IMG/VR virus record: IMGVR_UViG_2529292977_000006
DNA length: 4,250 bases
Source: a virus
Taxonomy: Duplodnaviria > Heunggongvirae > Uroviricota > Caudoviricetes
Direction: 5' to 3' (one strand)
Part shown: positions 616 to 4,250 of the stretch, piece by piece
How positions within the stretch are numbered: position 1 is the stretch's first letter
How the letters are laid out: each line of letters opens with the position of its first letter
Translations under genes and position numbers: made by a program
The notes under the pieces: generated by a model
The model's input: only the letters and a program-made list of their open reading frames with translations
Databases searched by the model: none
What the model was told of the DNA's origin: nothing

Positions 616-1332
616 ATGGAAACCGTATCTGACGCACTGAAAGCACTGAAAAGAGCCTCTTCACATGTGGTGGCAGCTCGCCTTGGAATTAGTCGTGAAG
701 AGGCTGTCAACGAACTGTGGAAACTGAAACGCCGTGGAGAAGCGGATAACAAGGGGGCGATATGGTGGCTGACTCAGGCTGGTGAAAGTGAACCGGTGTC
801 ACCGGTACCGAAAGTGACGGCGCAAATGCTGACAGAGGCGATTGAACAACATGGCCCACAAACGGCGGATGAACTGGCATTGATGTTCGGAATTACCTCC
901 CGCCGGGCGAATTCATCGCTGGCAATGGCAATCAGCAAAGGGTGTCTGATTCGCGTGAATCAGGATGGTAAATTTCGTTACTGCATACCGGGCGTTGATT
1001 TACCGGCAGAGCCGAAAGCAGCATCCGTAGCTGAAACGGAGGGTAAAGCCCTTCCTCAGCCAGCTGGTGTTGCGTTACCAGTCCAGGAAACGGCTGCACA
1101 GGAAGAAATTAAAACAGAAGCGGTGGAGGACATTGTGAAGTTGCAGCAATCGTTCACTGAAGCGAAAGCAGATGACCTGATTCTACCATCGCTGCATGTG
1201 GCTAACCGCGAGCTGCGCCGGGCGAAAAGTAATGTTCAGAAGTGGGAGCGAGTCTGTGCTGCGCTACGGGAACTGAACAAACACAGGGATATTCTCCGGG
1301 ATATTACCGCCACCAGAGAGCAGCAGCGGTGA
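616..1332 (+). CDS. Hypothetical protein with two tandem winged-helix-like modules, a Pro/Ala-rich linker and a C-terminal coiled-coil-like tail; occupies the position of ren
   Basis: ATG at 616 is preceded by GGAGG (603-607) at 8 nt; the TTG at 598 used by the ORF track has no SD. Stop TGA at 1330-1332. Two segments have a similar HTH-then-basic-wing pattern (residues ~10-50 and ~75-125), followed by [26 protein letters not shown] and a charged helical tail. It sits immediately downstream of P, as ren does in lambda. Confidence 0.6.
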
Positions 1333-1646
1333 GTGGCTGGAAGAAGTGGCGCTGGGCTGAAATCCTGATACTCCGGCAGTGTGCGGGAACGATGAGAGTC
1401 GAAAGCATCGGTTATCTGATTGGCCGTAGTGAGTCAGCCGTCAGGACGAAAGCGCGGGAACTGGGTATCAGCATGATGTTACGGGGTGATTATCACCAGT
1501 CAGCCAAATGTTCACAGCGTGATATTGAGCTGGCGTGGCAACTGCATCAGCGTGGTGTACCCCGACGGGAAATTGCCGAAAAGTTTGGGATGAAGTTGGG
1601 CGCAGTGAATAACTACGTTTATTTCGACAGGAGGGTTCAGGAGTGA
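1329..1646 (+). CDS. Small helix-turn-helix DNA-binding protein (hypothetical)
   Basis: ORF in frame 0 ending at TGA 1644-1646. GTG at 1329 overlaps the upstream stop (GTGA), a typical coupling arrangement; the alternative start is ATG 1392. The ATG at 1242 would overlap the upstream gene by 90 nt and is rejected. Two HTH-like segments: [21 protein letters not shown] and [21 protein letters not shown]. Confidence 0.5.
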
Positions 1647-1945
1647 GGGTGAGGGTTTATATCGCCGGTCCGATGACGGGATATGAAAATTTTAACCGCG
1701 AGGCATTTCACAAAACGGAAGAGGTGCTGAAACGGGAAGGGCATACCGTTTTAAACCCGGCAGTACTTCCGGACGGGCTGACTCAGCCACACTACATGGA
1801 TATTTGCATGGCAATGCTCCGTTGCGTGGATGCGGTTTACATGCTGAAAGGCTGGCAGCAGTCGGCAGGTGCAGGGGCTGAGCTGGCACTGGAGGAGAAA
1901 CCGGGCCATGCGGTGATTTTTCAGGAGGTGGGCAGTGAATATTGA
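1643..1945 (+). CDS. DUF4406-like protein (nucleoside 2-deoxyribosyltransferase-like fold)
   Basis: GTG at 1643 overlaps the upstream TGA (GTGA) and is preceded by AGGAGG (1629-1634) at 8 nt; stop TGA 1943-1945. The ~100-aa product starts VYIAGPMTGYENFNREAF, which matches my memory of the N-terminal YIAG-x-(I/M)TG motif of DUF4406 / deoxyribosyltransferase-like proteins. This is recall, not a search. Confidence 0.6.
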   Translation: MRVRVYIAGPMTGYENFNREAFHKTEEVLKREGHTVLNPAVLPDGLTQPHYMDICMAMLRCVDAVYMLKGWQQSAGAGAELALEEKPGHAVIFQEVGSEY

Positions 1946-2252
1946 CCCGGCGATAACGATTGATATGGCCCTGAACGCCGGCCTGGCACTTCTTGGTTAT
2001 TTCTACATTATGTTCTGCAGCGGACGATGGCTGTCACTGTTGTTCATGAAAAAATGGAATAAACGCCGTAAGCAGGAGCAACGCCAGAAGGCAATGGATG
2101 CATTTTTCGAAGCCTTCGGAATTGACGGCATGGAACCAGGGGATCCAGCTCGCGCAATCAGCAGAGGGGGTGTAGTAATCCTTGTATATCGGAGTGAAGA
2201 GAAAAATGACGATCACAAAACAACGTGTAGAAGAAATCATATCCCGCATTGA
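1935..2252 (+). CDS. Small membrane protein (hypothetical), one predicted TM helix followed by a basic stretch
   Basis: GTG at 1935 with AGGAGG (1923-1928) at 6 nt; it overlaps the upstream gene by 11 nt. Hydrophobic segment ALNAGLALLGYFYIMFCSGRWLSLLF followed by KKWNKRRKQEQRQK. Stop at 2250-2252. The 3' end overlaps the next gene by 47 nt, so the true C-terminus is uncertain. Confidence 0.45.
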   Translation: MNIDPAITIDMALNAGLALLGYFYIMFCSGRWLSLLFMKKWNKRRKQEQRQKAMDAFFEAFGIDGMEPGDPARAISRGGVVILVYRSEEKNDDHKTTCRRNHIPH

Positions 2253-2948: not shown

Positions 2949-3140
2949 ATGAACGGACAAATATCAATTGTTCGACCAGGAGCATGTGACGATCGCGAAA
3001 TACGAATGATTATTCGTCTGGCGATGGGGAAAACAATAACTGCTCTCATTACTCCAGAAAATCTCGCATTAGCATTAACAGGAAAGTCAGACATGCCAGT
3101 AGAGCTAAAGCTGCGAAATGTTGAGATTAAGGTGAAATAG
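2949..3140 (+). CDS. Hypothetical small protein (63 aa)
   Basis: ATG 2949 lies 1 nt after the upstream stop, with AAAGGAGAG (2937-2945) upstream; stop TAG 3138-3140. No recognisable motif; it is called on operon context and the ribosome-binding site. Confidence 0.5.
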   Translation: MNGQISIVRPGACDDREIRMIIRLAMGKTITALITPENLALALTGKSDMPVELKLRNVEIKVK

Positions 3141-3142
3141 CT

Positions 3143-3700
3143 ATGACCACTATTACCAAAGATCGACTGCTGACAATCCAGCATTGGCGCGAAACATACG
3201 GACCGGGTAGCAACGTTGTGCTTCCAGCAGAAGAAGCGGAAGAGCTGGCACGGATTGCGCTGGCATCACTGGCAGCAGTATCGGATGAACGAGCAGCCTA
3301 TGAATTATTTATGGAGAAGCGTTTCGGAGAATCTGTAGATCGCCGCAGAGCAAAAAATGGCGATAGAGATTACATGGTATGGGATATGGCGCTTGGCTGG
3401 ATTATCTGGTGTCACCGCGCCGCCATGCTTCAGGCTGGAAACTTTCGGGAAAATAAGGGTTCGTCAACCAATAATTTTCGGATAATCTCGGAAACGTCAA
3501 CCAACTCTCCGGCAATCCCTGATGAGGTGTTGTCCGCAATCCTGAAGGTCGCCAGGCTTCGTGCAGATTTCGATGCTTCTGAAGTGGACAGGCGAGGTAT
3601 CGGTAGTTGTCTGGATGAGGCCGAGCAAGAACTTATCGTTACCATTAACGAATACGCCAGTCAGATCGCAGTAGAAGCGACACAGGGGGAGAACCAATGA
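3143..3700 (+). CDS. Hypothetical protein (185 aa); N-terminus paralogous to the 2206..2523 product
   Basis: ATG 3143 lies 2 nt after the upstream stop, with AAGGTGA (3129-3135) upstream; stop TGA 3698-3700. Shares the N-terminal pattern MT(T)ITK-x-R...YG-x-G...AL with the gene at 2206. Confidence 0.6.
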   Translation: MTTITKDRLLTIQHWRETYGPGSNVVLPAEEAEELARIALASLAAVSDERAAYELFMEKRFGESVDRRRAKNGDRDYMVWDMALGWIIWCHRAAMLQAGNFRENKGSSTNNFRIISETSTNSPAIPDEVLSAILKVARLRADFDASEVDRRGIGSCLDEAEQELIVTINEYASQIAVEATQGENQ

Positions 3701-3982: not shown

Positions 3983-4000
3983 TGCTGCGGGTGCTTGAGG

Positions 4001-4036
4001 CTGTCTGCCTCGGGCATGCCACCGTAAGGCAGACAG
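4001..4036 (+). other. Stable hairpin in the presumed hok mRNA leader (10-bp perfect stem, 16-nt loop)
   Basis: CTGTCTGCCT (4001-4010) is the exact reverse complement of AGGCAGACAG (4027-4036). It is not followed by a U-tract. Confidence 0.35.
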
Positions 4037-4157
4037 AGAAAAGCCCCAGTTAACATTACGCGTCCTGCAAGACGCTTAACATTAATCTGAGGCCCAATCT
4101 ATGCTTCACAAACGTAGGTTAGCCTCTTACGCGCCGAAAGGCAAGGAGAAGCAGGTT

Positions 4158-4250
4158 ATGAAGCAGCAAAAGGCGATGTTAATCGCCCTGATCGTCATCT
4201 GTTTAACCGTCATAGTGACGGCACTGGTAACGAGGAAAGACCTCTGCGAG
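4158..4250 (+). CDS. hok: Hok-family type I toxin (HokD/RelF-like), 3'-truncated by the window edge
   Basis: ATG 4158 is preceded by AAGGAGAAG (4142-4150). The translation MKQQKAMLIALIVICLTVIVTALVTRKDLCE matches the N-terminus of E. coli HokD/RelF as I remember it, including the TM helix and the conserved Cys. An in-frame ATG at 4101 with its own SD lies upstream. Confidence 0.75.
   Translation, partial: MKQQKAMLIALIVICLTVIVTALVTRKDLCE

What the first reader, a model, noticed from the sequence alone, without database searches (positions are those of the whole stretch)
1643..1945. DUF4406 / deoxyribosyltransferase-like protein inside a phage accessory operon: candidate nucleotide-targeting anti-defence or DNA-modification function
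The ~100-aa product begins VYIAGPMTGYENFNREAF. I read this as the nucleotide-binding N-terminal motif of the nucleoside 2-deoxyribosyltransferase-like (DUF4406) fold, which is related to enzymes that cleave or exchange N-glycosidic bonds. It sits among translationally coupled small genes just downstream of the replication genes, where lambdoid phages keep anti-defence and host-takeover morons. Such an enzyme could process nucleotides or nucleotide-derived immune signals, or modify phage DNA precursors. No function is demonstrated.
Basis: partly seen in the sequence, partly recalled or inferred. Interest (0 to 1): 0.6.

Follow-up and report, generated by a model that had tools for sequence, protein, structure and literature searches.

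The report
Prophage DUF4406 deoxyribosyltransferase-like gene
This is a real, already annotated 100-residue prophage gene of E. coli O157:H7 from the DUF4406 branch of the nucleoside deoxyribosyltransferase fold; it is probably a small nucleotide-cleaving enzyme made alongside the phage replication genes, and nothing found here links it to anti-defence.

Summary
ORF 1643-1945 (+, GTG start, 100 aa) matches Pfam DUF4406 at E=2e-33 and PHROG 355 'nucleoside 2-deoxyribosyltransferase' at 4e-43. RefSeq annotates the identical gene as 'DUF4406 domain-containing protein' in O157:H7 prophages.

The gene is translationally coupled to its neighbours. Related phages carry it in replication and recombination regions, with varying neighbours.

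Close E. coli alleles evolve at dN/dS of about 0.07, so the family is functional. The O157 allele, however, carries four lineage-specific changes, all nonsynonymous. Three lie in or next to the catalytic helix, including A84E at a 92%-conserved Ala. The prophage also contains pseudogenes, so this copy may be weakened.

No evidence for anti-defence or DNA modification was found, and no paper reports a function. The family and gene are known, and interest is modest.

The parts
1643..1945 (+). DUF4406 coding sequence (100 aa, GTG start; an alternative in-frame GTG lies at 1649)
   Evidence: ORF list. Pfam PF14359 E=2e-33. PHROG 355 E=4e-43. The identical gene is annotated in RefSeq. AlphaFold model pLDDT 91.4.
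1629..1635 (+). Shine-Dalgarno sequence AGGAGGG, 7 nt upstream of GTG 1643
   Evidence: Read from the sequence.
1643..1646 (+). GTGA start/stop overlap with the upstream 105-aa HTH gene (1329-1646), indicating translational coupling
   Evidence: Sequence. PGAP gene coordinates 19687-20004 and 20001-20303.
1658..1681 (+). Codons 6-13, YIAGPMTG: strand beta-1 and the glycine-rich loop. It aligns with YFCGSIRGG of DNPH1 and YIAGPAVF of T. brucei NDT. Tyr6 is the equivalent of the Tyr that orients the catalytic Glu.
   Evidence: Alignments. Conservation: Y/F 96/99, G9 98/99, P10 91/99, G13 94/99.
1829..1831 (+). Codon 63, Asp63, just before strand beta-3. It is the equivalent of the catalytic-triad Asp of NDT/DNPH1.
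   Evidence: hhalign places CVDAVY against QADVVV of DNPH1. D/E in 83/99 homologues.
1862..1903 (+). Codons 74-87, SAGAGAELALEEKP: the catalytic helix, with Ser74 (candidate phosphate-pocket position) and Glu80 (predicted nucleophile). It also holds the O157-specific substitutions G78, E84 and P87.
   Evidence: Profile alignment to 2a0k, 6qai, 4jen and 1t1j and to DNPH1. S74 97/99, E80 96/99, A84 92/99 with no Glu. Lineage-specific changes.
1935..1945 (+). 11-nt overlap between the end of DUF4406 and the GTG start of the downstream DUF4752 gene (1935-2252)
   Evidence: ORF list. PGAP coordinates. DUF4752 Pfam E=7.5e-39.
1329..1646 (+). Upstream coupled gene: 105-aa helix-turn-helix protein (PHROG 323), the usual but not constant upstream partner
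   Evidence: Present upstream in most, but not all, of 80 related prophage loci.

Best explanation
The gene encodes a minimal, four-stranded member of the nucleoside 2-deoxyribosyltransferase (NDT) superfamily, Pfam family DUF4406. It is transcribed and translated as part of the early rightward operon, together with the phage replication genes.

I think it most likely breaks the N-glycosidic bond of free (deoxy)nucleoside 5'-monophosphates. It would either release the base (hydrolase, like DNPH1, MilB or BcmB) or pass the phosphodeoxyribosyl group to another base (like the phage enzyme DmtZ). Glu80 would form a covalent sugar-enzyme intermediate, Tyr6 would orient it and Asp63 would assist. 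Ser74 and the GPMTG loop would leave room for a 5'-phosphate. The biological effect would be to reshape or clean the nucleotide pool while the phage replicates.

What is shown: the gene, its coupling to neighbours, the family, the fold, conservation of the catalytic residues, and purifying selection across the family. What is inferred: the chemistry, the phosphate-bearing substrate and the biological role.

The O157:H7 allele in this window carries derived changes (R78G, A84E, L87P) in or next to the catalytic helix and may have reduced or altered activity.
For: Family and fold:
- Pfam DUF4406 E=2e-33 and PHROG 355 E=4e-43.
- The family profile hits T. brucei NDT 2a0k at E=5.8e-5, and more weakly 6qai, 1t1j and BcmB 4jen.
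- Foldseek's top hits are NDTs, 1t1j, DNPH1 and MilB, with TM about 0.7-0.78.

Catalytic residues:
- E80 aligns with the nucleophile Glu of 2a0k, 6qai, 4jen and DNPH1 and is kept in 96/99 diverse homologues.
- Y/F6 is kept in 96/99 and D/E63 in 83/99.
- S74 (97/99) aligns with Ser in BcmB, DNPH1 and 1t1j, but with Asp in the nucleoside transferases 2a0k and 6qai.
- PMC12884076 states that NMP hydrolases replace the 5'-OH-binding Asp/Asn of NDTs with uncharged, space-saving residues.

Precedent: that paper shows a phage NDT-like enzyme (DmtZ) acting on dAMP.

Selection: dN/dS is about 0.07 among 49 close E. coli nucleotide alleles.

Context:
- The gene sits in replication and recombination early regions in E. 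coli, Vibrio, Aeromonas, Pseudomonas, Arthrobacter and Mycobacterium phages.
- No internal promoter or terminator stands out above chance.
- Two BFVD proteins with this fold are named as dATP/dGTP diphosphohydrolase-domain proteins, which may be fusions to a dNMP-producing enzyme (names only).
Against: - No biochemical or genetic data exist for any DUF4406 protein in the literature searched.
- The domain lacks the C-terminal third of NDT/DNPH1. That missing part includes strand beta-5, the second phosphate-binding Ser of DNPH1, and the residues that a neighbouring subunit contributes to the active site in NDTs. Substrate and oligomeric state therefore cannot be transferred with confidence.
- The DNPH1 alignment is not significant on its own (hhalign E=0.25). 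The Ser74 argument is by analogy.
- NDT-fold and TIR-fold relatives also hydrolyse NAD+, so the substrate class is open.
- No nucleotide-metabolism gene is consistently adjacent.
- No informative fusion was found among 80 long homologues.
- The allele in this window may be impaired.
Confidence: 0.45

Rival explanations
1. Anti-defence enzyme. The protein would destroy a nucleotide-derived immune signal or an NAD-derived molecule (Thoeris, CBASS, Pycsar and similar systems), or would counter nucleotide-depleting defences.
Against: No known anti-defence gene or defence-related profile matches it or its neighbours. Literature searches combining deoxyribosyltransferase with anti-defence return only retron effectors and dZ-genome enzymes. 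The TIR similarity is generic to the fold. Conserved residues match the NDT/DNPH1 catalytic set, not TIR. The gene sits among core replication and recombination genes in very different phages, which suggests a housekeeping early function.
Confidence: 0.1
2. Classical nucleoside 2'-deoxyribosyltransferase. The enzyme would swap bases between free deoxynucleosides (salvage) rather than act on 5'-phosphorylated nucleotides.
For: PHROG 355 and many phage records carry this name. The best sequence-level PDB hit is a purine deoxyribosyltransferase, 2a0k, at E=5.8e-5. A few longer homologues also match Pfam Nuc_deoxyrib_tr weakly (6 of 70).
Against: The window protein does not reach PF05014 at E<=0.01. 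The 5'-OH-binding Asp of NDTs is replaced by a near-invariant Ser. The C-terminal elements that complete the NDT active site are absent, since the model ends after beta-4.
Confidence: 0.15
3. In this particular genome the gene is a decaying, functionally weakened copy in a defective prophage, whatever the family does elsewhere.
For: All four nucleotide changes specific to the O157 clade, compared with 71 other close alleles, are nonsynonymous: A25T, R78G, A84E and L87P. The probability of that is 0.0013 at the family's dN/dS of 0.07 and 0.35 under neutrality. Three of the four fall within codons 78-87, around the catalytic Glu. Ala84 is Ala in 92/99 diverse homologues and never Glu. The residue four positions after the catalytic Glu is also Ala in 2a0k, 6qai, 4jen and DNPH1. 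The host prophage has truncated exonuclease and RusA genes and a frameshifted portal gene.
Against: The reading frame is intact and identical in 277 complete genomes. All catalytic residues are kept. Only four changes are involved, and recombination among alleles could distort the count. Pro87 lies just past the modelled helix end (helix 75-85) and may be tolerated. The pattern also fits adaptive change.
Confidence: 0.3
4. Non-catalytic nucleotide- or DNA-binding protein: a sponge for a small nucleotide, or a SLOG/DprA-like DNA-associated factor helping recombination or replication.
Against: Near-invariance of the nucleophile Glu, the Ser and the Tyr/Phe is what is expected of an enzyme. DprA and SLOG hits score well below the NDT, MilB and 1t1j hits.
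Confidence: 0.07

Closest known systems
Pfam DUF4406 (PF14359) / PHROG 355; RefSeq WP_001310212.1
   Same: Full-length, high-scoring member (E=2e-33). The identical protein is already in RefSeq under this name. It has the same size and motifs (YIAGPMTG, LNPAxLPxGL, GWxxSxGAxxE) as thousands of phage and prophage homologues.
   Different: The O157 allele departs from the family at G78, E84 and P87. The family itself has no demonstrated function.
DNPH1/Rcl and MilB/BcmB (nucleoside 5'-monophosphate N-glycosidases of the NDT superfamily)
   Different: About 100 aa against 130-160 aa. It has four strands instead of five and lacks the segment carrying the second phosphate-binding Ser. Sequence similarity is not significant by itself (hhalign E=0.25; 4jen E=0.28). 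Activity is untested.
Nucleoside 2'-deoxyribosyltransferases (PF05014; e.g. T. brucei PDT 2a0k, L. leichmannii NDT 1f8x)
   Same: This is the best sequence-level structural relative (2a0k E=5.8e-5). It shares the fold and the catalytic Glu on the equivalent helix.
   Different: No PF05014 match for the window protein. It has Ser instead of the 5'-OH-binding Asp. It lacks the C-terminal part whose residues complete the neighbouring subunit's active site.
DmtZ of Gordonia phage Ghobes / Arthrobacter phage Wayne (PMC12884076)
   Same: A phage-encoded NDT-superfamily enzyme with a Tyr, Asn/Asp and Glu triad that acts on a dNMP (dAMP) to reshape the nucleotide pool. It is the only characterised phage precedent found.
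   Different: DmtZ is about 145 aa and five-stranded. It is linked to dZ-genome genes (PurZ0, DutZ) and is reported to have no sequence similarity to database families. A Ghobes protein appears only as a weak fold match (E=2.7e-3, 14% identity). The O157 prophage has no dZ pathway.
PA1492 (PDB 1t1j, a structural-genomics protein of unknown function)
   Different: 17% identity. Its function is also unknown, so it adds no mechanism.
NDT-like effector of retron Ec86/Eco1 and TIR-domain NADases
   Same: The same broad fold class, used in phage-bacterium conflict to cut N-glycosidic bonds.
   Different: Those are host defence effectors controlled by a reverse transcriptase/msDNA complex or by sensor domains. 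Here a stand-alone phage early gene has no partner of that kind.

Membership tests
Pfam DUF4406 (PF14359) | HMM score above the gathering threshold over the whole ~91-position domain | tested here: met
   115.1 bits against a cut-off of 22, E=2e-33, profile positions 2-90 of 91.
Pfam DUF4406 (PF14359) | Family-conserved residues (G9, P10, G13, N18, F22, P39, P43, G45, Y51, W71, S74, G76, A77, E80, A84) | tested here: inconclusive
   All are present except A84, which is Glu in the window and Ala in 92/99 homologues with no other Glu.
NDT superfamily (fold level) | Flavodoxin-like alpha/beta fold resembling solved NDT, DNPH1 and MilB structures | tested here: met
NDT superfamily (fold level) | Nucleophile Glu on the helix after strand beta-3, with Tyr after beta-1 and Asp before beta-3 | tested here: met
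   E80, Y6 and D63 align with the catalytic residues of 2a0k, 6qai, 4jen and DNPH1. Conservation is 96/99, 96/99 (Y/F) and 83/99 (D/E).
Nucleoside 2'-deoxyribosyltransferase proper (PF05014) | Match to the Nuc_deoxyrib_tr HMM | tested here: not met
   No PF05014 hit at E<=0.01 for the window protein. Only 6 of 70 longer homologues match it, and the one whose score is shown (23.9 bits, E=4.8e-5) is below the 28.8-bit cut-off.
Nucleoside 2'-deoxyribosyltransferase proper (PF05014) | Asp that binds the sugar 5'-OH, and C-terminal residues contributed to the neighbouring active site | tested here: not met
   The position is Ser74 (97/99 Ser), where 2a0k and 6qai have Asp. The protein ends 7 residues after beta-4.
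NMP/dNMP N-glycosidases (DNPH1, MilB, BcmB) | Uncharged small residue (Ser) at the 5'-phosphate pocket in place of the NDT Asp | tested here: met
   S74 aligns with the Ser of BcmB 4jen and of DNPH1. The rule is stated in PMC12884076.
NMP/dNMP N-glycosidases (DNPH1, MilB, BcmB) | Second phosphate-binding Ser after strand beta-4/beta-5, and hydrolysis of (d)NMP to base plus (deoxy)ribose 5-phosphate | not testable with these tools
   The region is absent from the 100-aa protein. Activity needs biochemistry.
LOG / SLOG (lysine-decarboxylase-like) | LOG HMM match or PGGxGTxxE motif; LOG structures among the top fold hits | tested here: not met
Known anti-phage defence components (PADLOC-DB) | Profile match to a catalogued defence-system protein | tested here: not met
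   No PADLOC hit for this protein or seven neighbours at E<=0.01.
Known anti-defence proteins | Homology to, or experimental inhibition of, a defence system | not testable with these tools
   No anti-defence profile library was available. Literature searches found no such report.

The most novel reading that the evidence does not exclude
DUF4406 proteins would be a distinct, minimal (four-stranded, ~95 aa) class of phage dNMP N-glycosidases used in conflict. They would either neutralise nucleotide-based host immunity or, like MilB and DNPH1 on 5-hydroxymethyl pyrimidine nucleotides, destroy the modified dNMP precursors of competing phages. The O157 allele changes near the catalytic helix would then reflect adaptation rather than decay.
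Probability: 0.1. Interest if true: 0.65.

Novelty: already known. Interest (0 to 1): 0.25.

Why it matters
DUF4406 is one of the commoner phage early-gene families with no demonstrated function. It occurs in 1114 of 5426 complete E. coli genomes, in 310 phage records from Proteobacteria to Actinobacteria and in about 9000 clusters at 50% identity.

If it is a dNMP N-glycosidase or transglycosylase, it would add a widespread and very small enzyme to the list of ways temperate phages manipulate nucleotide pools, and it would be an easy target for biochemistry. For this window, though, the gene is an ordinary, already annotated family member, and possibly a weakened copy. The finding mainly confirms existing annotation rather than revealing a new system.

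Tried and rejected
- Single-sequence AlphaFold gave an unusable model (pLDDT 42). The alignment-based run was needed.
- Single-sequence phmmer against the PDB gave only spurious SIRP-beta hits.
- The search for related loci with the diverse alignment A2 failed because it had no conserved stretch to search with. With A1 it returned only close E. coli prophage relatives. Those were useful for the allele and neighbour analysis but not for distant context.
- Domain fusions as a functional clue led nowhere. Pfam on 10 and then 70 long homologues found no informative second domain, only HTH, DUF4752, DUF551, VRR_NUC and RNA_pol_A_CTD, each in one or two proteins and probably read-through gene calls. 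PHROG scans of C-terminal extensions found only families of unknown function.
- Homologues labelled 'MazG-like pyrophosphatase' or 'deoxycytidylate deaminase' in actinophage and Pseudomonas phage records turned out to be single-domain DUF4406 proteins or mis-called fragments, not fusions. I rejected them as evidence.
- NCBIfam and PADLOC gave no hits.
- An obligate DUF4406-DUF4752 pair was rejected, because the downstream neighbour varies (DUF4752, Ead/Ea22 or others) among 80 loci.
- Promoter and terminator scans found nothing above shuffled expectation.
- Literature searches for DUF4406, PF14359, DUF1937, deoxyribosyltransferase with anti-defence or lambdoid, and DNPH1 with bacteriophage found no functional study of this family. 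The one relevant precedent was DmtZ.

Full report

Yes. The window has an ORF at 1643-1945 on the + strand with a GTG start, 100 aa, beginning [22 protein letters not shown]. It matches Pfam DUF4406 (PF14359) over essentially the whole model (E=2e-33, 115 bits against a cut-off of 22). It also matches PHROG 355 'nucleoside 2-deoxyribosyltransferase' (E=4e-43).

The same 303 nt occur at 100% identity in E. coli O157:H7 chromosomes. There RefSeq/PGAP annotates exactly this ORF as 'DUF4406 domain-containing protein', WP_001310212.1. Homologues at 80% nucleotide identity or more are present in 1114 of 5426 complete E. coli genomes.

A strong ribosome-binding site (AGGAGGG, 1629-1635) precedes the GTG. 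A second in-frame GTG at 1649 is an equally plausible start.

**2. Surroundings**

The window is about 99% identical to an O157:H7 lambdoid prophage that lies next to potC in strain TR01. That prophage has a RacR-type repressor, DnaT-like and lambda-P-like replication genes, and several pseudogenes: a truncated exonuclease, a truncated RusA and a frameshifted portal gene.

The order in the window is:
- P-like loader (40-582)
- DUF1627 (613-1332)
- a 105-aa HTH protein (1329-1646)
- DUF4406 (1643-1945)
- DUF4752 (1935-2252)
- an unknown gene (2206-2523)
- Ead/Ea22-like (2510-2947)
- a 63-aa ORF (2949-3140)
- DUF551 (3143-3700)
- a hok/sok locus

Consecutive genes overlap by GTGA or by 11-47 nt. 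No promoter-like or terminator-like site exceeds the shuffled expectation.

Among 80 related prophage loci the upstream HTH and DUF1627 genes are common. The downstream neighbour varies (DUF4752, Ead/Ea22 or others), so DUF4406 is an independent mosaic cassette and not half of a fixed pair.

**3. Fold and active site**

A single-sequence model failed. With a 100-sequence alignment, AlphaFold2 gave pLDDT 91.4 and pTM 0.85, with a beta-alpha-beta-alpha-beta-alpha-beta core of only four strands.

- Foldseek against the PDB puts T. brucei and bacterial deoxyribosyltransferases, 1t1j, DNPH1 and MilB at the top, with TM about 0.7-0.78.
- A family profile hits 2a0k at E=5.8e-5, and more weakly 6qai, 1t1j and BcmB.

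In those alignments, and in an hhalign alignment to human DNPH1, the key residues line up. I first checked my DNPH1 sequence against the PDB. The hhalign alignment itself is not significant (E=0.25).

- Glu80 falls on the catalytic nucleophile.
- Tyr6 falls on the Tyr that orients it.
- Asp63 falls on the triad Asp.

Across 99 diverse homologues, E80 is kept in 96, S74 in 97, Y/F6 in 96 and D/E63 in 83.

Ser74 aligns with Ser in the nucleotide hydrolases BcmB and DNPH1 (and in 1t1j), but with Asp in the nucleoside transferases 2a0k and 6qai. A 2026 study of the phage enzyme DmtZ states the rule explicitly. NMP-specific members lack the Asp/Asn that holds the 5'-OH in NDTs and carry uncharged, space-saving residues there (PMC12884076).

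The protein does not match PF05014. It also lacks the C-terminal third of NDT/DNPH1.

**4. Most likely mechanism**

I commit to the following. The protein is an N-glycosidase, or phosphodeoxyribosyl-transferase, acting on (deoxy)nucleoside 5'-monophosphates. It works through a covalent Glu80-sugar intermediate. It is made with the replication proteins and reshapes or cleans the nucleotide pool during lytic growth. My confidence is about 0.45.

Supporting points:
- The conserved catalytic set and the Ser74 signature.
- The precedent of DmtZ, a phage NDT-like enzyme that hydrolyses dAMP and transfers deoxyribose 5-phosphate to the Z base.
- Strong purifying selection among close E. coli alleles (median dN/dS 0.07 over 1162 pairs).
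- A recurrent position among replication and recombination genes in unrelated phages. Examples are dNMP kinase, exonuclease and primase in Arthrobacter phage Amyev; helicase and RusA in Chubster; Exo VIII, Erf and SSB in C130_2; a cytosine methyltransferase in Pseudomonas D14E; helicase, NinB and NinG in Orisa02; and DnaQ and helicase in Mufasa.

Weak points:
- No experiment exists for any family member.
- The missing C-terminal elements mean that substrate and oligomer cannot simply be copied from DNPH1 or NDT.
- Relatives of this fold also cut NAD+.
- No nucleotide-metabolism neighbour is constant.

**5. This particular allele**

Translating the gene in 80 related loci shows that all other E. 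coli alleles read SAGA[R/K]AELALAEKLG. The O157 clade reads SAGAGAELALEEKPG.

Compared with 71 other alleles, the O157 clade has four private nucleotide changes, and all four are nonsynonymous: A25T, R78G, A84E and L87P. At the family's dN/dS the chance of four out of four being nonsynonymous is 0.0013. Under neutrality it is 0.35.

Ala84 is Ala in 92 of 99 diverse homologues and never Glu. The residue four positions after the catalytic Glu is also Ala in 2a0k, 6qai, 4jen and DNPH1. Given the pseudogenes in the same prophage, relaxed constraint and reduced activity are plausible, at about 0.3. With only four changes, adaptive change or recombination cannot be excluded.

**6.

Anti-defence or DNA-precursor modification remains pure speculation.
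- PADLOC and NCBIfam give no hits for this gene or its neighbours.
- No modification cluster is nearby.
- Literature searches return only incidental annotations of DUF4406, retron NDT-like effectors, which are host defence proteins, and dZ-genome enzymes.
- LOG-like neighbours were not found.
- Leads from 'MazG' and 'dCMP deaminase' labels on homologues proved to be annotation drift on single-domain proteins.
- Two BFVD entries with this fold are named as dATP/dGTP diphosphohydrolase-domain proteins. They might be real fusions, but I could not retrieve the sequences.

**7. Verdict**

The feature is real, and both the family and the gene are already known and annotated. Its biochemical function is unknown but can be narrowed to N-glycosidic-bond chemistry, probably on 5'-phosphorylated nucleotides. 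The copy in this window may be impaired.

Interest is low to moderate (0.25). The most novel reading still open is a minimal phage dNMP glycosidase used in phage-host or phage-phage conflict. I give that about 0.1 probability.

Noticed in passing
window 3989-4250 (+): A complete hok/sok-type type I toxin-antitoxin locus. Rfam sok (RF01794) scores 114.9 bits at 3989-4163. A Hok-family toxin ORF starts at 4158 (MKQQKAMLIALIVICLTVIVTALVTRKDLCE…) and is cut by the window end. PGAP names it hokD in O157 TR01.
   Followed up: partly
window 1874-1903 (codons 78-87 of the DUF4406 gene) and 1715-1717 (codon 25): The O157 clade allele has four private substitutions, all nonsynonymous (A25T, R78G, A84E, L87P). 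Three lie in or next to the catalytic helix. The family's dN/dS is about 0.07, so this suggests either relaxed constraint in a defective prophage or adaptive change.
   Followed up: yes
window 1329-1332, 1643-1646, 1935-1945, 2206-2252, 2510-2523: Successive genes overlap: two GTGA start/stop overlaps, then overlaps of 11, 47 and 14 nt. These link six genes downstream of the replication module.
   Followed up: partly
L002 4004-4372 (Arthrobacter phage Amyev gp28); L003 3992-4321 (Shambre1 gp62); L093 2657-2785 (Pseudomonas phage Orisa02): Single-domain DUF4406 homologues are deposited as 'MazG-like pyrophosphatase', 'deoxycytidylate deaminase' or 'MazG-like protein'. In Orisa02 only a 42-aa fragment is called. 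These are probably propagated misannotations.
   Followed up: partly
BFVD entries A0A6J5LQ71 (216 aa) and A0A6J5S4N9 (462 aa), outside the window: Viral proteins named 'dATP/dGTP diphosphohydrolase N-terminal domain-containing protein' contain a DUF4406-like fold (39% and 32% identity to the query). They may be genuine fusions with a dNMP-producing enzyme. The sequences could not be retrieved.
   Followed up: no
window 3143-3700 (+), DUF551 gene: This gene differs from the O157 genomes that otherwise match the window at about 99%. The whole-window match is split in two pieces covering 95-96%. PGAP's DUF551 gene in strain TR01 is 588 nt, against 558 nt here.
   Followed up: no
window 1935-2252 (+), DUF4752: The downstream coupled gene encodes a small protein with a hydrophobic N-terminal segment (ITIDMALNAGLALLGYFYIMF…). 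It is probably membrane-anchored and its function is unknown. It neighbours DUF4406 in only some prophages.
   Followed up: partly
window 1643-1654: The DUF4406 gene starts with a tandem hexamer, GTGAGG GTGAGG, encoding V-R-V-R. This gives two equivalent in-frame GTG starts, each with its own Shine-Dalgarno-like sequence. The VRVR N-terminus is kept in nearly all close E. coli alleles.
   Followed up: partly
L001 14427-14828, 24219-25749, 35262-37846 (O157:H7 TR01 prophage): The prophage carrying this gene has a truncated exonuclease, a truncated RusA joined to a DUF6645 fragment, and a frameshifted portal gene. It is therefore probably defective.
   Followed up: no
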